From a virus (lineage: Duplodnaviria > Heunggongvirae > Uroviricota > Caudoviricetes): 7,021 bases of DNA. Shown here in pieces: positions 1,459 to 7,021 of the stretch (the stretch's first letter is position 1; the number at the start of each line of letters is the position of its first letter). Below the pieces are notes generated by a model. That model did not search any database, was not told where the DNA came from, and saw only the letters and a program-made list of their open reading frames with translations. The stretch is from IMG/VR virus record IMGVR_UViG_2681813316_000021, one strand, 5' to 3'. The translations under genes and the position numbers were made by a program.

Positions 1459-2529
1459 ATGGCTAACGCCTGGCTCAGATTATGGCATGACATGCCAAAT
1501 GACCCTAAGTGGCGAACAATTGCCAGGGTGTCAGGGCAGCCAATTGCAACAGTGATGGCAGTGTATATCCACCTCCTGGTGAGCGCGTCACGAAATGTCA
1601 CGCGAGGTCACATTGATGTCACGACAGAAGATTTGGCAAGTGCGCTCGACGTGACAGAAGAGGTAATTGATTCAATTTTGCAGACGATGCAGGGGCGGGT
1701 ACTTGATGGTGATTTAATCACTGGATGGGAAAAACGCCAGGTGCTTAAAGAGGACAACGGCAATATTTCGCAAACCGCAAAATCTCCGGCAGAGCGCAAG
1801 AGGGCGCAGCGTGAGAGGGAAAGAAAGCGGGAACAAAATGGCGATTGTCACGACGCGTCACGAAATGTCACGCACATGTCACGACGAGTCACGACAGATA
1901 AAGATACAGATAAAGATACAGATCAAGAAGATCAAAATACTATGGTTCATGGCGTAAAAAACGCCACGAACCAGGCAGGGGATGTTCAGACCGTCAACCC
2001 TGGTCAGCCAGCAGGCACGACACCGGAAGCCGATTCAGCGTATGCGCTGAAAGCCGATTCGGGCGCTGTGCAGCAGGTGATGACCGCAAGGCCGGAGCAA
2101 TCACACCAACTGCAGCAGCCTGAAGCCGATTCCGCCATTCAGCGGGAAGCCGATCGGGTAGTCCCGGAAAACACCGGGCAGCCTGTGGGACGAGTGGATT
2201 ATCCGGATGTGTTCGAACAGATCTGGCGGGAGTACCCGTTGCGTGCCGGGGCAAACCCGAAGAAATCCGCTTTCAGTGCCTGGAAGGCCAGATTACGCGA
2301 GGGGGTGCCACCAGAGGCCATGCTGGATGGCGTGAGGCGTTACGCAAGATACCTGGCGGTTACCGGGAAAACGGGAACGGAATTTGTTCAGCGAGCGACG
2401 ACGTTTTTTGGACCGGACCGGAATTTTGAAAACCCCTGGTTGCTCCCGGTAAACGGCACGAACAACCAGCGTTGTGTGAATCATATTTCTGAACCGGATA
2501 CCGAAATTCCGCCGGGCTTCAGGGGGTAA
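1459..2529 (+). CDS. Putative phage replication initiation protein (lambda O-like role) with iteron origin inside the gene; ATG at 1459 preferred over GTG at 1453
   Basis: GAGGTGA Shine-Dalgarno before the ATG at 1459. Two clusters of GTCACG iterons and an AT-rich tandem repeat lie inside the ORF. Acidic, low-complexity linker (DKDTDKDTDQEDQN). C-terminal segment FEQIWREYPLRAGANPKKSAFSAWKARL resembles a motif I associate with phage replication proteins. Confidence 0.6.
   Translation: MANAWLRLWHDMPNDPKWRTIARVSGQPIATVMAVYIHLLVSASRNVTRGHIDVTTEDLASALDVTEEVIDSILQTMQGRVLDGDLITGWEKRQVLKEDNGNISQTAKSPAERKRAQRERERKREQNGDCHDASRNVTHMSRRVTTDKDTDKDTDQEDQNTMVHGVKNATNQAGDVQTVNPGQPAGTTPEADSAYALKADSGAVQQVMTARPEQSHQLQQPEADSAIQREADRVVPENTGQPVGRVDYPDVFEQIWREYPLRAGANPKKSAFSAWKARLREGVPPEAMLDGVRRYARYLAVTGKTGTEFVQRATTFFGPDRNFENPWLLPVNGTNNQRCVNHISEPDTEIPPGFRG
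1584..1623. repeat. Iteron cluster 1: four GTCAC(G/A) repeats at about 10-11 bp periodicity (1587, 1597, 1607, 1618), plus an inverted copy CGTGAC at 1650-1655
   Basis: Direct reading. The 20-bp block CGCGTCACGAAATGTCACGC at 1584-1603 recurs exactly at 1854-1873. Confidence 0.6.
1847..1894. repeat. Iteron cluster 2: five GTCACG repeats at about 10-11 bp periodicity (1847, 1857, 1867, 1878, 1889)
   Basis: Direct reading. Contains the exact 20-bp repeat of cluster 1. Helical-turn spacing is typical of initiator binding sites. Confidence 0.65.
1897..1938. repeat. AT-rich tandem repeat (GATAAAGATACA twice, then GATCAAGAAGATCAAAAT) immediately downstream of iteron cluster 2; candidate DNA-unwinding element
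   Basis: Direct reading. AT-rich tract adjacent to iterons, the same arrangement as in the lambda-type origin. Confidence 0.45.
2027..2154. repeat. Four direct copies of AAGCCGAT (2027-2034, 2051-2058, 2123-2130, 2147-2154), arranged as two pairs each 24 bp apart
   Basis: Direct reading. The copies fall in the Pro/Gln/Ala-rich linker of the replication protein (peptide-level repeats PEADSA / KADSG / PEADSA / READR). Confidence 0.4.
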
Positions 2530-2569: not shown

Positions 2570-2992
2570 GTGGCAAAAGTATTTACACAAGAAGAGCGAG
2601 AAAAAATTAAAGGGCAGGTTGTTGAACTCGTACGCCAGAGTGGGCGTGAGACGTTACGACAACTGGAAGTCAAGACAGGTGCGACAAGATATCTGATGAG
2701 CGTTCTCGCGAGAGAGCTGGTTGCCAGCGGTGATGTATACAATTCTGGTTACGGGTTATTCCCGTCTGAACAGGCGCGTAAGGACTGGCAAAATGCCCGT
2801 AAAAAGCTCTCAAGGGCAAAGCTGAAGAAACCATCTGCGGTTGATCCGGACCTTATCTGGTCATTACCTGATGGAGAAATACGTCGTTACGACAGGCATC
2901 ATAATATAATTTGTACTGAGTGTCGTAAAAGCGAAGTTATGCAGCGCATATTGTCGTTTTATCAGGGGAATGTTCGGTATTTATTAAAGTGA
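2570..2992 (+). CDS. Hypothetical small basic protein, 140 aa, GTG start, with C-terminal HHx3Cx2C motif (possible metal-binding or DNA-binding regulator)
   Basis: ORF track. AGGAGGA Shine-Dalgarno upstream of the GTG at 2570. Host-like base composition. I do not recognise a family. Confidence 0.5.
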   Translation: MAKVFTQEEREKIKGQVVELVRQSGRETLRQLEVKTGATRYLMSVLARELVASGDVYNSGYGLFPSEQARKDWQNARKKLSRAKLKKPSAVDPDLIWSLPDGEIRRYDRHHNIICTECRKSEVMQRILSFYQGNVRYLLK

Positions 2993-3301
2993 CGAGATTA
3001 AAATGCATTAGTTAAGATGTGAATTGACATTTTGTGGCACAGGATAGAGCTATCGTGGTTGTCCGCTTTGTGCCAGAAGCGGAAGTTAGAAATTATCTGC
3101 CAACCGATAAGATGGCTGCCTAAGTCGTAGCGATTCAGCACTGTTTTAGCGGCGCTCGATTGCAAAGTCGTGCTTTGCTGACTTGCGATTGTGCTCTTTA
3201 CGAGCAAAGCTTTCAGGTATAGTAAGTGCTAACTGTAGTGTAAAATTATAGGGATAGATGAAGAAAACAACGAGGCTTTAGCTAATCTTTGCAGTTGTGT
3301 C

Positions 3302-3310
3302 TGCTATAAT
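3302..3310 (+). promoter_or_regulatory. Candidate extended -10 promoter element TGcTATAAT about 80 bp upstream of the large ORF
   Basis: Direct reading: TG at 3302-3303 and TATAAT at 3305-3310. No good -35, which is tolerated for extended -10 promoters. A GAAGGGA Shine-Dalgarno precedes the ATG at 3392. Confidence 0.35.
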
Positions 3311-3391
3311 AAGGCGAAATTTTATCTGCATGATTTTGTTTGATTAACTCCGAAAGCCAGCTCTCTCGGTGAAGATTGGGAAGGGATATCA

Positions 3392-6300
3392 ATGAGTGAT
3401 GATAGCTATAAATTTCAAAAGTTAACTCCGTTCAGCGATGTTGAGCTGGGTGTATATAAAAATGCGATAGATTTTGTTTTTGCCAATAACGATCTAAAAA
3501 ATGTTGCGATATCAGGGCAATATAGCGCAGGAAAAAGTAGTCTTATCGAATCCTATAAGAAAAGTCATTCAAATATAAAGTTTGTTCATATCTCACTTGC
3601 TCATTTCAGATCGATTGAGGAAGCTGAAACTAATGAACCAAGTAAAGATATAAATGAAACCGCGTTAGAAGGTAAAGTTCTTAACCAGTTAATTCACCAA
3701 ATTAATGCTGATGATATTCCCCAGACACATTTTAAAGTAAAGAAAAAAATAAAAACTAACAACATTGTGATAAACACCATCTTTACGGTGTTATTTATCG
3801 CCATGATACTACATATCACGCTATTTAATAAGTGGGAAAAGTTTGTTTCACTTTTATCTGAAGGTAATATAAAGACACTACTTACATTATCAACTAAATA
3901 CGATACGCTTTTAATTAGTGGGTTTATATGTACTATCCTATCTTGTATTTTCATTTACAAGTTAATAAAAATCCAAAAGAATCGTAATGTTCTTAAGAAA
4001 ATAAATTTACAGGGTAATGAAATAGAGATTTTTGAAGAAAGTAACGAGTCTTATTTCGATAGATATTTAAATGAAGTATTGTACCTTTTCGAGAACGTTG
4101 ATGCTGATGCCATTGTTTTTGAAGACATGGACCGTTTTAATAGTAATAACATCTTTGAACGTCTTCATGAGGTTAACAGACTGGTTAATATTCAACGGGA
4201 CACAGCAGGGCACAAGAAATCGACGTTACGTTTTATTTACTTGCTTCGTGATGATATCTTCATTTCGAAGGATAGAACCAAATTCTTTGATTATATCATT
4301 CCAGTTATTCCTGTTGTTGATAGTTCTAACTCTTACGATCAGTTTATCACACATTTTGATGGTGGTGGTATTCTCAAGTTGTTCAATGAAAGATTTCTAC
4401 AAGGGATGTCTTTATATATTGATGATATGAGAATATTGAAGAATATTTATAACGAATTTCAAATTTATTATAACAAATTAAACACGACAGAACTTGACTG
4501 TAATAAAATGTTGGCCATTATTGCCTATAAGAATATTTTCCCAAGAGATTTTAGTGAGTTGCAACTTAATCAAGGTATGGTTTATACCATATTTAGTGAA
4601 AAAGACAACCTTATTATTGAAGAAATAAAGAAAATAGAAAAAGATATTAGAGATAGAAAAAAAGAGATTGAGGCAATCAATGATGAAATACTCAACTCTA
4701 GTCAGGAGGTTGATGCTATATACGATAAGGAATTATCTAGATATAATAATCATCCTCACTATAATCAGGCTGAGAAAGCTGATATAGCAAAGAGAAGGGC
4801 GGCTAGAAAAGAAAGTGTTGAAAATAAATTTAATGGTAAAATAGAAGAAATTAATGAGCTTATATCAAGATCAAGAGAAAGTTTGGTTGATTCTAGAAAC
4901 AAAAGACTTAAAGAAGTAATAACTAGAGAAAACATTGATGAAATATTTAAACTCACCTATACCAATGAAATTGGAGAGGAAAGAGACTTTAATGAAATAA
5001 AAAGCAGTGAGTATTTTGACTTGCTTAAATACCTTATTCGTGATGGTTATATTGATGAAACCTATACCGACTATATGACCTATTTTTATGAAAATAGCCT
5101 GAGTCGAATTGATAAGATGTTTTTACGCAGCATTACCGATCAAAAAGGCAAAGAGTTCACTTATCAACTCAAGAACCCCAAGCTGGTCGTTGCCCGCCTT
5201 CGAGAAGTGGATTTTGAACAGGAAGAGGCGCTTAATTTTGATTTATTAGCTTATCTGCTTCAAACGCCAGCCCAGGTAAACTTAATAAAACGTTTATTCA
5301 AACAACTAAGAAAAGATAGAAGAGTTGAGTTTATTCGTGGTTACTTTGAAACTGAGAGGGCTCAGCCTGTCTTCATTAATCGATTAAATACACAGTGGCC
5401 TGAGTTTTTTTCTTATGCGCTGACAGAGAGTGAATTTTCTGCTGATTGGGTTAAACTCTACTCTATAGGCACGTTTTATTATTCTGCCAATGACGCCATC
5501 GAGGCCATTAATATTGATGATTGTCTGACTGATTACATCTCTGATTCGGCAGGTTATTTAGCAATATCAGAACCGAAGGTTGACAAATTAATTAGTGGTT
5601 TTAAGTTGCTTAACGTCTCTTTTGTCAGTATTAAATTTGAAAACGCAAATAAAGTACTCTTTGATGCGGTTTACCAGCATTCACTTTATGATATTAATTT
5701 TTCCAACCTGACCTTAATGCTGAGTAAGGTTTACACGCTTAATAGTGAAGATGATATTCGCCATAAGAACTATACACTAGTGATGTCACAACCTGATTCT
5801 CCCTTGGCTAGTTATGTTAATAACCATATTAGGGACTATCTGGATATGGTTTTATCTAGTTGTGATGGTTCAATCGTGGATGATGAATCCATTGTTTTAT
5901 CCGTTCTTAATAATGAGGGAATATCTGATGAACAAAAAGGCCAGTATATAAACGCTTTGCAAACTTTCGTGACATCTCTGAGTGAGGTTGAGAGCGAATC
6001 TTTATGGTCATCTTTGTTGGATAAAGATAGAGCAGTGTGCTCTGAGGAAAATATTGTCTCTTATTTTGAACATGTTGATGGACTGGATGACTCACTTATC
6101 GAATTTATCAATAGAACTGATGTAGACCTGAATTTTCAAAATATTAATATTGATAACGAGCTTAAAGGTAAATTATTTAAATCGATTGTTATCTGTAATG
6201 ATTTATCAAATGATAAATATGAAAAATTAATTTGCTCACTAAATATTATTTGTAAAGCATCCTTTAGCGCTAGTAATATCGCGAGTGATAAGTTCAAAAT

Positions 6301-6964
6301 ATTAGTGGATAAAAATATTATTCGTATGAATGTTGCGCCACTTAATTTCATACGAGATAACTATTCAGAGCAACTTTCCTATTATATTCATAAGAATATC
6401 AGGGCATACGTTGAATTAATGACGATTGATAACTTTATTTTGGATGAGGCTATATCAATACTTTCTTGGAAAGTTGATGATGATTTGAAAGTTAAGCTAC
6501 TCGAGTTTGTTAAAACTCCGTTGGCTATTTATAGTAAGAATTACTCTCAGGTCGTTAATGACTATATTTTAGAAAATAATTTTAAACCAGATGAACTTCT
6601 AATCTTGACGTCATCTTATAAAACTTGGGGAACCTCTACTCAGTCGCTCATCTTGAGTCGAGCAATACAGGATATATCAGCATTGATAGCAAGTCCTAAT
6701 GATGTTTCTGAACCGTTACTAAAAAACCTGTTTGTCGCAGAGGGACTGAATATGCAGAATAAAATAGCACTGCTAATCGCTTTGTTGCCGGGTAAGGATT
6801 TGAGTAAGACGACTTGCAAAGAGTATCTTGATCTGCTTGGTTTATCGGAGTTCAGTAAAATTTTGGGGCGAGGCAAACCTAAAATTGAAGTTGATTCAAC
6901 TAATCAAAGTTTATTAACAGCATTAAGGAAGGTGCGAATAAGCGGGGAAATTCTTCTCGGCTGA
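3392..6964 (+). CDS. Large membrane-associated P-loop NTPase, KAP-family-like (PifA/YobI-like architecture), 1190 aa; candidate anti-phage defence protein
   Basis: Uninterrupted 3.57-kb ORF. Walker A GQYSAGKSS (aa 42-50, nt 3515-3541). Two hydrophobic helices at about aa 125-145 and 173-192 (nt 3764-3826 and 3908-3967). Walker B-like AIVFEDMD (aa about 241-248, nt about 4112-4135). Charged coiled-coil-like segment at about aa 400-510. Strong AT bias and AAA/AAT/ATT/GAT-rich codon usage, unlike the upstream genes. Confidence 0.8.
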   Translation: MSDDSYKFQKLTPFSDVELGVYKNAIDFVFANNDLKNVAISGQYSAGKSSLIESYKKSHSNIKFVHISLAHFRSIEEAETNEPSKDINETALEGKVLNQLIHQINADDIPQTHFKVKKKIKTNNIVINTIFTVLFIAMILHITLFNKWEKFVSLLSEGNIKTLLTLSTKYDTLLISGFICTILSCIFIYKLIKIQKNRNVLKKINLQGNEIEIFEESNESYFDRYLNEVLYLFENVDADAIVFEDMDRFNSNNIFERLHEVNRLVNIQRDTAGHKKSTLRFIYLLRDDIFISKDRTKFFDYIIPVIPVVDSSNSYDQFITHFDGGGILKLFNERFLQGMSLYIDDMRILKNIYNEFQIYYNKLNTTELDCNKMLAIIAYKNIFPRDFSELQLNQGMVYTIFSEKDNLIIEEIKKIEKDIRDRKKEIEAINDEILNSSQEVDAIYDKELSRYNNHPHYNQAEKADIAKRRAARKESVENKFNGKIEEINELISRSRESLVDSRNKRLKEVITRENIDEIFKLTYTNEIGEERDFNEIKSSEYFDLLKYLIRDGYIDETYTDYMTYFYENSLSRIDKMFLRSITDQKGKEFTYQLKNPKLVVARLREVDFEQEEALNFDLLAYLLQTPAQVNLIKRLFKQLRKDRRVEFIRGYFETERAQPVFINRLNTQWPEFFSYALTESEFSADWVKLYSIGTFYYSANDAIEAINIDDCLTDYISDSAGYLAISEPKVDKLISGFKLLNVSFVSIKFENANKVLFDAVYQHSLYDINFSNLTLMLSKVYTLNSEDDIRHKNYTLVMSQPDSPLASYVNNHIRDYLDMVLSSCDGSIVDDESIVLSVLNNEGISDEQKGQYINALQTFVTSLSEVESESLWSSLLDKDRAVCSEENIVSYFEHVDGLDDSLIEFINRTDVDLNFQNINIDNELKGKLFKSIVICNDLSNDKYEKLICSLNIICKASFSASNIASDKFKILVDKNIIRMNVAPLNFIRDNYSEQLSYYIHKNIRAYVELMTIDNFILDEAISILSWKVDDDLKVKLLEFVKTPLAIYSKNYSQVVNDYILENNFKPDELLILTSSYKTWGTSTQSLILSRAIQDISALIASPNDVSEPLLKNLFVAEGLNMQNKIALLIALLPGKDLSKTTCKEYLDLLGLSEFSKILGRGKPKIEVDSTNQSLLTALRKVRISGEILLG

Positions 6965-7021
6965 CTCAGTCATTTCATTTCTTCATGTTTGAGCCGATTT
7001 TTTCTCCCGTAAATGCCTTGA

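What the first reader, a model, noticed from the sequence alone, without database searches (positions are those of the whole stretch)
2993..3391. Sharp compositional boundary marking the cargo insertion junction
Sequence up to about 3230 has host/phage-like composition (about half G+C by eye). From about 3230 onward, and through the whole 3392-6964 ORF, the sequence turns strongly AT-rich. The 400-bp spacer carries a candidate extended -10 (TGcTATAAT, 3302-3310) and a Shine-Dalgarno for the large ORF, consistent with an independently transcribed, horizontally acquired moron.
Basis: partly seen in the sequence, partly recalled or inferred. Interest (0 to 1): 0.4.

Follow-up and report, generated by a model that had tools for sequence, protein, structure and literature searches.

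The report
Recombination-site boundary of a prophage defence cassette
The G+C drop is real but blurred; the true junction is a 24-base inverted-repeat site at 3061-3084, where a swappable anti-phage gene cassette (tmn) joins a lambda-like prophage, and the same site bounds over a hundred cassettes in unrelated phages, plasmids and islands.

Summary
G+C falls from 0.52 to 0.34, but not sharply and not at 3230. The likelihood change point is 2897, with support 2848-3240.

Comparison puts the junction at 3075/3076. That lies inside a 24-bp site at 3061-3084: GTCCGCTTT-GTGCCA-GAAGCGGAA, two 9-bp inverted arms around a 6-bp core ('L').

The cargo is a 4.1-kb cassette. It carries its own 316-bp leader, the TGcTATAAT box, and a YobI-family Tmn defence gene. 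In this window IS5 cuts that gene after codon 1179.

The slot lies between the DUF977 gene and hokD. It is always bounded by L and by a second site 'R' (core TCGCTC), and it holds at least 22 different cassettes. No empty site was found in 1776 E. coli genomes.

The same sites flank fun(Z) of phage P2, where inverted repeats and site-specific recombination were proposed in 2004. Identical cassettes occur in the P2 and lambdoid slots, with similarity ending at the sites.

Arrays of L/R sites accompany a 200-aa tyrosine recombinase gene that sits between an R core and an L core in many genera.

Best reading: cassette exchange at two sites with different cores. The choice of enzyme is inferred.

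The parts
2570..2992 (+). DUF977 (YdaW/LygF-like) gene, the last conserved backbone gene to the left of the cassette slot
   Evidence: Pfam PF06163, E 1.3e-29. Annotated as a DUF977 family protein in related prophages. Used to fetch 80 related viral loci.
2993..3060 (+). Backbone spacer shared with prophages that carry other cassettes, G+C 0.37. It includes TGGCACAGGATAGAG (3035-3049), which resembles an inverted L core.
   Evidence: Homology to phage Tritos and others runs through it. The TGGCACAGRGTARAG element recurs about 20 nt upstream of the L site in the P2 G-FI slot.
3061..3084 (.). 'L' site GTCCGCTTT-GTGCCA-GAAGCGGAA. The outer arm (3061-3069) belongs to the backbone. The core is 3070-3075. 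The inner arm (3076-3084) belongs to the cassette. The junction is at 3075/3076.
   Evidence: It is the overlap of backbone-only and cassette-only homologies. All 54 loci with both flanks start the insert here. The consensus comes from 68 unique contexts. Outer arms are backbone-specific while core and inner arm travel with the cassette. The same site follows gene G of P2.
3076..3391 (+). The cassette's own 5' region (leader and control region) of tmn. It contains a G+C-richer stretch at 3085-3229 with the repeats GCGATTCAGCACT / GCGATTGTGCTCT.
   Evidence: It is co-linear with the gene in the prophage slot, in an island near ydeP-ydeT, and in an island next to ldtA. There is no Rfam match.
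3302..3310 (+). Candidate extended -10 element TGcTATAAT. The inferred start is near 3317, giving a leader of about 75 nt.
   Evidence: Exact match. Unchanged in the 95%-identical copy of strain A30, but that conservation is not significant. No -35 hexamer with more than 2 of 6 matches lies at a 16-18 nt spacing (my reading of the sequence), and the sigma-70 scan does not call a promoter on this strand here. Function is not shown.
3378..3385 (+). Shine-Dalgarno-like GGGAAGGG, 6 nt upstream of the ATG
   Evidence: Read directly from the sequence. Conserved in all three contexts.
3392..6926 (+). [quoted passage not shown] Walker A is GQYSAGKS. Two hydrophobic segments lie at about aa 124-146 and 172-194.
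   Evidence: Pfam YobI-ATPase, E 6.2e-123. PADLOC Tmn, E 7.6e-67.
6927..7021 (+). End of an IS5 copy inserted in the 3' end of tmn, at target TTAA 6923-6926. It replaces the last 31 codons with 11 IS5-derived codons and a stop at 6962-6964.
   Evidence: 98-100% identity to IS5 in P1, 434 and other records. Junction and altered C-terminus are shown.

Best explanation
The interval 2993-3391 contains the left boundary of a mobile gene cassette, followed by that cassette's own control region.

The window is the early-right region of a Qin/Rac-type lambdoid prophage of E. coli: repressor, cro-like gene, ydaT-like gene, replisome organiser and DUF977 gene. Between the DUF977 gene and hokD this phage family keeps a cassette slot.

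The slot is delimited by two 24-bp sites. Both have 9-bp inverted arms (GTCCGCTnn / nnAGCGGAC) around a 6-bp asymmetric core. The left site 'L' has core GTGCCA and lies at 3061-3084 here. The right site 'R' has core TCGCTC and lies beyond the IS5 that ends this window.

Shown: everything between the cores is exchangeable, and here it is a 4.1-kb cassette encoding the Tmn/YobI membrane NTPase, a known anti-phage defence protein.

Inferred: because the phage early operon is repressed in a lysogen, the cassette brings its own promoter (candidate TGcTATAAT, 3302-3310) and ribosome-binding site.

Inferred mechanism: cassettes are exchanged by a tyrosine recombinase that cuts at the edges of the 6-bp cores. 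L pairs only with L and R only with R, because the cores differ. A double exchange, or integration of a circle followed by deletion, then replaces one cassette by another without leaving the slot empty and without inverting the cassette. This is the logic of engineered recombinase-mediated cassette exchange.

The candidate enzyme is a 200-aa tyrosine recombinase encoded elsewhere. It is not in this window or this prophage. Its gene always sits between an R core and an L core inside arrays of such cassettes on plasmids, islands and a few prophages.

In this particular copy the defence gene has since been damaged by an IS5 insertion.
For: Junction. Backbone homology ends at 3080-3088 and cassette homology starts at 3061.

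Slot.
- 54 of 54 viral loci that have both flanks begin the insert with GTCCGCTTTGTGCCA and end it with CGCTCAAAGCGGAC.
- Those inserts fall into 23 sequence clusters, 22 of them full cassettes and one a 272-bp remnant. Across all loci held there are 118 families in 204 instances.
- A synthetic empty junction finds no empty site in the 1776 genomes that carry the flanks. The only near-match is the 272-bp remnant of the AbiH cassette.

Precision of exchange.
- Phage Tritos and locus L026 differ by 1/615 and 0/615 bases in their flanks. They carry unrelated cassettes that switch right after GTGCCA and right before TCGCTC.
- Cassettes 99.6-99.7% identical sit in the lambdoid slot and in the P2 slot between genes G and FI. 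There is no flank homology, and the outer arms are specific to each backbone.
- The tmn cassette occurs in three contexts with the same ends.

Site architecture. L was seen in 68 unique contexts and R in 75, with nothing conserved outside the 24 bp.

Recombinase link.
- The gene is present in 897 of 5426 E. coli genomes and on 441 plasmids.
- In 14 of 18 loci from more than ten genera an exact TCGCTC lies 53-62 nt before its start. In 15 of 18 an exact GTGCCA lies 30-57 nt after the end of the protein match (30-31 nt in 14 of them).
- Conservation of the recombinase module starts and stops at those cores.
- There are 68 L/R sites in 276 kb around close relatives, against 1 in 886 kb around distant relatives.
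- Distant lineages keep the arms but use another core pair, CGGCCA and GGGTCG.
- Pfam Phage_integrase, E 2e-17. H148-x-x-R151, H174 and Y183 align with XerD.

Cargo. YobI-ATPase and Tmn models match. Tmn is an experimentally studied defence protein. Other cassettes in the slot are AbiH, CBASS, PD-T7-1, Lit and PDC-S15, among others.

Prior report. Inverted repeats flanking fun(Z) of P2, and a site-specific recombination interpretation, are attributed to Nilsson et al. 2004 in PMC8987985. I confirmed L and R sites around fun(Z) in P2.
Against: - No recombinase is encoded in the window or in the related prophages examined. Only one prophage locus of about 60 (L016) has it in the slot. Isolated phage genomes lack close homologues.
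- No recombination product, circle or empty site has been observed, and nothing here is experimental.
- The recombinase could be just another passenger of the arrays.
- A cassette's own 5' and 3' arms are not significantly more complementary to each other than permuted pairs (1.33 against 1.40 mismatches, p = 0.13). The circular-intermediate version of the model therefore has no support from covariation.
- Among related prophages, the roughly 100 bp next to the sites are conserved. Homologous recombination there cannot be excluded for phage-to-phage swaps.
- Promoter activity of TGcTATAAT is untested, and its conservation is uninformative.
Confidence: 0.6

Rival explanations
1. Cassettes are swapped by homologous recombination (host RecA or phage RecE/RecT-type enzymes) within the conserved backbone flanks. 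On this view the 24-bp repeats are incidental, or serve another role such as protein binding or transcript structure, and merely mark the edge of conservation.
For: These prophages encode an exonuclease VIII-type recombination gene. Flanks are conserved for hundreds of bases. For swaps between related prophages, the first flank differences lie 41-141 bp (left) and 4-204 bp (right) from the sites across the ten pairs compared, about 90-100 bp in the Nudix-cassette pairs, so breakpoints cannot always be resolved to the site. No recombinase gene is in the window.
Against: The same cassettes, 99.6-99.7% identical, lie in the P2 tail-gene slot, the lambdoid slot, a plasmid and chromosomal islands. 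These share no flank homology, and similarity ends inside the 24-bp sites. Outer arms stay with the backbone and inner arms with the cassette. The two-core, 9-6-9 layout is conserved across lineages, with the cores changing together.
Confidence: 0.15
2. The sites are genuine recombination sites, but they are used by another enzyme: a host Xer-type recombinase, a phage integrase, or an unidentified protein. The 200-aa tyrosine recombinase would then be only one more module carried in the arrays.
For: Most slots and arrays lack the gene in cis. The association shown here is genomic only. In Acinetobacter, pdif modules use the chromosomal XerC/XerD (my own knowledge).
Against: The arms and cores bear no resemblance to E. 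coli dif (compared with my memory of the dif sequence). The recombinase gene occupies a fixed place between an R core and an L core in more than ten genera. Site cores change together with recombinase lineage.
Confidence: 0.2
3. This is the first reader's picture: a one-off insertion of an AT-rich moron by illegitimate recombination at about 3230, with the composition step marking the scar.
For: A G+C step exists. The cargo has its own candidate promoter and Shine-Dalgarno sequence.
Against: The comparative junction is at 3075/3076, not 3230. The same nucleotide position is used by at least 22 other cassettes, and the slot is never empty. The composition change point is only defined to within about 400 bp.
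Confidence: 0.03

Closest known systems
Z/fun locus of P2-like coliphages (Nilsson, Karlsson and Haggard-Ljungquist 2004, Mol Biol Evol 21:1, as summarised in PMC8987985)
   Same: A variable, AT-rich, non-essential gene sits at a fixed position and is flanked by inverted repeats taken to be site-specific recombination sites. The same genes with the same repeats occur in bacterial genomes. I found the same L and R sites around fun(Z) in P2. I also found identical cassettes in the P2 slot and in this lambdoid slot.
   Different: The backbone and position differ: a lambdoid early-right region between the DUF977 gene and hokD, rather than the tail genes G and FI. I could not read the 2004 paper. 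I therefore cannot say whether it described the two core types, the R-18-bp-L arrays, or the 200-aa recombinase.
[quoted passage not shown]
   Same: Full-length match to the YobI-ATPase Pfam model and to the PADLOC Tmn model. Walker A motif present. Two hydrophobic helices lie inside the NTPase domain. The intact form is about 1210 aa and is a single gene.
   Different: This copy has lost its last 31 codons to IS5. Whether it still defends is unknown. Its phage targets are untested.
Integrons (IntI, attI, attC cassettes)
   Same: Arrays of promiscuous cassettes, many of them defensive, are separated by short imperfect palindromic elements and associated with a tyrosine recombinase. The 66-bp R-18-L element has four arms, like an attC.
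   Different: The recombinase is 200 aa, whereas IntI (my own knowledge) is about 320 aa and carries an extra domain; I did not test this protein against an IntI model. There is no attI or Pc platform. Each cassette has two crossover points with different cores. Genes lie in either orientation and carry their own promoters. The sites look like ordinary double-stranded 9-6-9 core sites.
pdif modules of Acinetobacter plasmids, and engineered recombinase-mediated cassette exchange with heterospecific lox or FRT sites
   Same: Modules are bounded on both sides by short recombinase core sites in opposed orientation. Exchange needs no flank homology. Sites with different cores would prevent excision and inversion.
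   Different: pdif sites are 11-6-11 XerC/XerD sites used by chromosomal Xer proteins. Here the sites are 9-6-9, unrelated in sequence, and there is a dedicated small recombinase candidate. The comparison rests on my own knowledge, not on a test here.
Phage morons and prophage defence hotspots (P2/P4 cos-proximal hotspots, PMC9122126 and PMC13586616)
   Same: An AT-rich, independently expressed defence gene sits between conserved phage genes at a hypervariable position.
   Different: Here the boundaries are defined to the nucleotide by conserved sites. For the P2/P4 hotspots the authors still consider the exchange mechanism unresolved.

Membership tests
Tmn / YobI-family P-loop NTPase | YobI-like NTPase domain with a Walker A motif | tested here: met
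   PF20693, E 6.2e-123, covering profile positions 1-363 of 363. PADLOC Tmn, E 7.6e-67. GQYSAGKS is in the translation.
Tmn / YobI-family P-loop NTPase | Two transmembrane helices inserted within the P-loop domain (stated as the family signature in bioRxiv 10.64898/2026.03.01.708804) | tested here: met
   Two Kyte-Doolittle peaks above 1.8, at about aa 124-146 and 172-194, lie inside the 22-398 domain match. This is hydropathy only, not a topology prediction.
Tmn / YobI-family P-loop NTPase | Intact full-length protein | tested here: not met
   IS5 replaces the last 31 of 1210 residues in this window. Intact copies exist in other genomes.
Tmn / YobI-family P-loop NTPase | Protects against phage infection | not testable with these tools
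   Needs plaque assays. The family has been tested by others.
Z/fun-type repeat-flanked cassette slot (Nilsson et al. 2004) | Variable insert flanked by conserved inverted repeats at a fixed position in related phages | tested here: met
   L site at 3061-3084. The R site is seen in intact relatives (L001 13169-13192). 54 of 54 loci conform.
Z/fun-type repeat-flanked cassette slot (Nilsson et al. 2004) | The repeats are the same as those around fun(Z) of P2 | tested here: met
   P2 15335-15358 is GTCCACTCT GTGCCA AAAGCGGAC. P2 17432-17455 is TTCCGCTTC TCGCTC AAAGGAAAC. That these are the repeats meant in the 2004 paper is inferred from the one-sentence summary in PMC8987985.
Z/fun-type repeat-flanked cassette slot (Nilsson et al. 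2004) | The same inserts with the same repeats occur in bacterial chromosomes or plasmids | tested here: met
   The tmn cassette is in two chromosomal islands. The betU and 269-aa cassettes are on plasmid pB18271_2 and in Erwinia.
Integron | IntI-type integrase adjacent to attI and a Pc promoter | tested here: not met
   There is no integrase in the window. The associated recombinase is 200 aa and its best NCBIfam scores are far below the cut-offs (54.6 against 220).
Integron | Cassettes are mostly promoterless, co-oriented, and each ends in a single attC | tested here: not met
   Cassette genes lie in both orientations. Each cassette has an L site and an R site. This one has its own candidate promoter.
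Tyrosine recombinase (candidate enzyme, not in the window) | Catalytic domain with the R-K-H-R-H-Y residues | tested here: met
   PF00589, E 2.1e-17. HxxR, LLGH and Y align with XerD. The residues are R51, K79, H148, R151, H174 and Y183. R51 and K79 are assigned by motif only.
Tyrosine recombinase (candidate enzyme, not in the window) | Acts on the L and R sites | not testable with these tools
   Only genomic association is available.
Moron (autonomous transcription unit in a prophage) | Own promoter and terminator, and composition unlike the neighbouring genes | tested here: inconclusive
   The composition differs. A candidate extended -10 is present but unproven. The 3' end of the cassette lies outside the window because of IS5.

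The most novel reading that the evidence does not exclude
The L and R repeats would be the crossover sites of a widespread cassette-exchange system that uses two sites with different cores, run in trans by a dedicated 200-aa tyrosine recombinase. That system would stock the hypervariable slots of several unrelated temperate-phage families: the lambdoid DUF977-hokD slot, P2 G-FI, a umuC-like/SRAP slot and a second lambdoid early region. It would also stock plasmids and genomic islands, all from one shared pool of more than 100 cassettes, mostly anti-phage. It would be a natural counterpart of engineered recombinase-mediated cassette exchange and a second, integron-independent cassette economy. 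Beyond the 2004 note on P2 fun(Z), it would not have been described.
Probability: 0.35. Interest if true: 0.8.

Novelty: new member of a known kind. Interest (0 to 1): 0.55.

Why it matters
How defence genes move between prophage hotspots, plasmids and islands that share no flanking homology is still described as unresolved in a paper dated September 2026 (PMC13586616).

This window shows, to the nucleotide, a junction made at a conserved 24-bp site. The same sites bound identical cassettes in P2-like and lambda-like phages. They are also found with one small recombinase family across many genera.

If the recombinase acts on these sites, three things follow:
- Hotspot turnover has a concrete, testable mechanism.
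- Cassette boundaries, and so new defence candidates, can be found by a simple motif search.
- The system offers a compact natural tool for cassette exchange.

For the finding as originally stated, the lesson is more modest. Composition alone misplaced the junction by about 155 bp.

Tried and rejected
- **Terminator or hairpin role for the site.** No intrinsic terminator is predicted in 2900-3500. The L site folds (z = -4.2) but the R site does not (z = 0.2). No T-run follows either site.
- **Known RNA element in the spacer.** No Rfam match anywhere in the window at E <= 1.
- **Empty-site model.** I first guessed that cassettes insert into a palindrome GTCCGCTTTG...CAAAGCGGAC. No empty site exists in the 1776 genomes with the flanks.
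- **Circular cassette with a self-complementary site.** A few examples look compensatory (L002, L026). Over 57 cassettes the 5' and 3' arm complementarity is not better than permuted (p = 0.13), so I dropped this as evidence.
- **Minus-strand ORF 2998-3207.** It has no family match and spans the junction, so I regard it as spurious.
- **Promoter conservation.** All E. coli copies are 99.8% identical. The one 95% copy keeps the -10, but at that divergence this is expected about half the time.
- **Literature.** Searching the motif strings returned nothing relevant. Five keyword searches for a described recombinase and cassette system found nothing. The 2004 P2 paper and the 2006 follow-up are not held.
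- **Closest solved structure of the recombinase.** Only XerD, at E = 0.004.
- I did not run structure prediction, because it would not change the conclusion.

Full report
**What the window is.**
The ORF layout and family matches identify the early-right region of a Qin/Rac-type lambdoid prophage of E. coli.
- A DicA/CI-like repressor lies on the minus strand at 212-631.
- On the plus strand follow a cro-like gene, a YdaT-family gene (962-1387), a replisome organiser (1453-2529) and a DUF977 gene (2570-2992).
- A 1190-codon ORF then runs from 3392 to 6964.

The large ORF matches the YobI-like P-loop NTPase model over its whole length (E 6.2e-123) and the PADLOC model of the Tmn defence system (E 7.6e-67). 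Tmn is an experimentally studied anti-phage protein, and its family signature is two transmembrane helices inserted in the NTPase domain. The window protein has the Walker A motif and two hydrophobic segments at about residues 124-146 and 172-194.

The last 95 bases of the window are the end of an IS5 copy. IS5 is inserted at a TTAA target. It replaces the last 31 codons of the intact 1210-residue protein with 11 IS5-derived codons.

**Checking the observation.**
G+C drops from 0.513 (1001-2992) to 0.326 (the ORF). A single change-point model is strongly supported, with dlnL 92.7 against a maximum of 9.5 in permutations.

The step is broad. The best change point is after 2897 and the support interval is 2848-3240. 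The end of the DUF977 gene and the spacer up to 3050 are already at 0.34-0.40. A G+C-richer bump of 0.46-0.50 lies at 3050-3230.

The TGcTATAAT box (3302-3310) and a GGGAAGGG ribosome-binding site six bases before the ATG are present. The box is one of three such matches in this AT-rich window (0.46 expected). It has a poor -35, so the simple promoter scan does not report it.

**Where the junction really is.**
Phages that share the backbone but not the cargo (Tritos, Evi, 204576, mEp460) match the window only up to 3080-3088. E. coli genomes that carry the cargo in other places match from 3061 to 6927.

Pairwise BLAST of three fetched loci shows that the two kinds of homology overlap only in 3061-3083, GTCCGCTTTGTGCCAGAAGCGGA. 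In phage Tritos a different gene, on the other strand, fills the space up to hokD. It is bounded by the same sequence on the left and by its near-inverse on the right.

**The slot.**
I fetched 80 viral contigs through the DUF977 protein and mapped the conserved left and right flanks.
- In all 54 loci that have both flanks, the insert begins with GTCCGCTTTGTGCCA and ends with CGCTCAAAGCGGAC. Insert sizes are 1.0-6.8 kb and G+C is 0.34-0.50.
- The inserts fall into 23 sequence clusters, 22 of them full cassettes and one a 272-bp remnant.
- A synthetic 'empty' junction was searched against 5426 complete E. coli genomes. The flanks are in 1776 genomes, but no empty site was found. The one near-hit is a 272-bp internal-deletion remnant of one cassette.
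- The tmn cassette is rare: 32 genomes, none on plasmids.

Cassette contents are largely defensive. They include Tmn, AbiH, a CBASS cyclase with a SLATT effector, PD-T7-1, Lit, RES/HEPN proteins, an Mrr-like nuclease and PDC-S15. Transporters also occur, such as a BCCT/DUF2254 pair and a LysR-ChaC-MFS set. Genes lie in either orientation relative to the sites.

**Anatomy of the sites.**
There are two site types. Read as 9-6-9, L is GTCcGCTtt GTGCCA nnAGCgGac (68 unique contexts). R is gTCcGctnn TCGCTC anAgcgGaC (75 unique contexts). Nothing is conserved outside the 24 bp.

The arms are inverted repeats of each other. The cores are asymmetric and differ between L and R. Inverted, R reads GAGCGA, which matches GTGCCA at four of six positions.

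Long inserts are arrays.
- L-cassette-R, then 18 bp, then L-cassette-R.
- Or L-cassette-L-cassette-R, where the first cassette (the BCCT/DUF2254 pair) is flanked by two L sites.

**How precise the exchange is.**
- Tritos and locus L026 differ at 1 of 615 and 0 of 615 flank positions. They carry unrelated cassettes of 1.8 and 4.1 kb. The sequences part immediately after GTGCCA and rejoin at TCGCTC.
- A search for exact L sites in viral contigs hit at least 120 contigs. Only 31 of 122 sites lie next to a DUF977 gene.
- The other sites lie in array linkers or in other backbones. These are the P2-type slot between the tail-fibre assembly gene and the sheath gene, a slot between a umuC-like gene and an SRAP gene, and a second lambdoid early region.
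- Two cassettes are 99.6-99.7% identical between the P2 slot and the lambdoid slot. Similarity is confined to the site-to-site interval. The outer arms differ in a backbone-specific way (GTCCGCTtT against GTCCGCTcT, and AAAGCgGAC against AAAGCaGAC). The core and inner arm go with the cassette.
- The tmn cassette shows the same ends in three contexts: the prophage slot, an island near ydeP-ydeT, and an island next to ldtA.

Homologous recombination in the flanks cannot explain exchange between backbones that share nothing but the 24 bp. In window coordinates, the backbone ends at 3075 and the cassette starts at 3076.

**A candidate enzyme.**
One prophage array (L016) contains a 200-residue protein of the phage-integrase family. 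Its gene is in 897 of 5426 E. coli genomes and on 441 plasmids. It has homologues of 60-98% identity in Enterobacterales, Alteromonadales, Pseudomonas and Burkholderiales.

In every E. coli context examined it lies within an array of L and R sites. The contexts are a genomic island of ABU 83972, plasmid pB18271_2 (next to the same BCCT cassette), and a third island.

Alignments of its surroundings show that conservation begins exactly at an R core and ends exactly at an L core. The gene thus occupies the place of the 18-bp linker. In 14 of 18 loci an exact TCGCTC lies 53-62 nt before the start codon. In 15 of 18 an exact GTGCCA lies 30-57 nt after the end of the protein match, at 30-31 nt in 14 of them.

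L/R sites number 68 in 276 kb around close relatives, against 1 in 886 kb around distant ones. Distant lineages keep the arms but use another pair of cores, CGGCCA and GGGTCG.

The protein has the expected HxxR, LLGH and tyrosine motifs, which align with XerD. XerD is its only, weak, relative among solved structures.

This is association, not proof. The window and its prophage encode no such enzyme, and isolated phage genomes lack close homologues.

**Mechanism proposed.**
Shown: the boundaries, the two site types, the arrays, the never-empty slot, the sharing of cassettes across unrelated backbones, and the fixed position of the recombinase gene.

Inferred from general knowledge of tyrosine recombinases: strand exchange occurs at the edges of a 6-8-bp overlap region, and that region must match between the two partners. 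L would then recombine only with L, and R only with R.

Two routes to replacement follow. One is a double exchange. The other is integration of a circle carrying cassette plus linker, followed by deletion. Either replaces the resident cassette. This would explain why the slot is never empty and why each cassette keeps a fixed polarity relative to L and R.

Expression in the lysogen from the cassette's own promoter is also inferred.

One test I expected to support a circular intermediate failed. Complementarity between a cassette's own two arms is not significant.

**What is already known.**
[quoted passage not shown] 2004. I could not obtain that paper.

I did verify that fun(Z) in the P2 reference genome is bounded by an L site (15335-15358) and an R site (17432-17455). 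The kind of junction seen in the window is therefore known. Tmn is known too.

The following I did not find described in the held library:
- the lambdoid slot;
- the two-core architecture;
- the arrays;
- the breadth of slots and cassettes (118 families among 204 instances);
- the recombinase association.

A paper dated September 2026 still treats exchange between phage hotspots and plasmids as unexplained. Because the 2004 paper is unread, I rate the finding as a new member of a known kind and put the broader reading in the novel case.

**Verdict.**
Its position was misplaced by about 155 bp, and a site-bounded cassette swap was read as a one-off insertion.

The interval contains four things:
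- the backbone spacer;
- a 24-bp recombination-type site;
- the cassette's leader, with a plausible but untested promoter;
- the start of a tmn gene that IS5 has since truncated.

Noticed in passing
window 6923-7021: An IS5 end is inserted at a TTAA target in the 3' end of tmn. The last 31 native codons are replaced by 11 IS5-derived codons, so the ORF end at 6964 is an artefact of the insertion and the defence gene may be inactive.
   Followed up: yes
window 3035-3049, P2 NC_001895 about 15299-15313, and many IMG/VR loci (for example L182, L207): TGGCACAG(R)GTA(R)AG is an inverted L-core-like element. It lies about 20 nt upstream of the L site in both the lambdoid and the P2 backbones, which are otherwise unrelated there. 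It looks like a decayed R-like site followed by a linker, the same layout as the internal R-18-bp-L linkers.
   Followed up: partly
window 3085-3229: The first 150 bp of the cassette are G+C-richer (0.46) than the rest. They hold a direct repeat GCGATTCAGCACT / GCGATTGTGCTCT (3130-3142, 3185-3197) and an 11-nt inverted pair (3130-3140 / 3176-3186). They lie upstream of the candidate promoter. A possible regulator-binding region; unexplained.
   Followed up: no
window 1583-1628 and 1854-1898: Two stretches of about 45 bp inside the replisome-organiser gene are about 85% identical to each other (self-hits). They may be origin iterons within the O-like gene.
   Followed up: no
L020 6631-10327, L086 6242-9938: A cassette encoding a 667-aa BCCT transporter (BetU-like by size, from my own knowledge) and a DUF2254 protein is flanked by two L sites rather than by L and R. 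Its arms are perfectly complementary (AGCAGAC / GTCTGCT). It occurs both in prophage slots and on a resistance plasmid. This is what integration of a circle with a single site would produce.
   Followed up: partly
L085 17743-23486: Not all cassettes are defensive. One 5.7-kb L-R cassette in E. coli ABU 83972 carries a TonB-dependent receptor with an ABC iron-uptake operon.
   Followed up: no
L116, L120, L126, L131, L138, L144 (Pseudomonas/Stutzerimonas), around position 9900-10650: Relatives of the recombinase at 60-65% identity are flanked by inverted copies of GTCGCTAAC-CGGCCA-nnAGCGGnC. A second core, GGGTCG, recurs nearby. The two-core design therefore seems conserved while the core sequences have changed.
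   Followed up: partly
L169 21289-27373 (E. coli 2018-02-2CC, next to hipBA): The island that holds a second copy of the tmn cassette also carries Hachiman-like genes and an ABC-three-component system. It has a 474-aa integrase followed by two large hypothetical genes. From my own knowledge, this resembles a Gamma-Mobile-Trio element.
   Followed up: no
window 2998-3207, minus strand: A 69-codon ORF spans the backbone/cassette junction and has no family match. It is most likely not a gene.
   Followed up: partly
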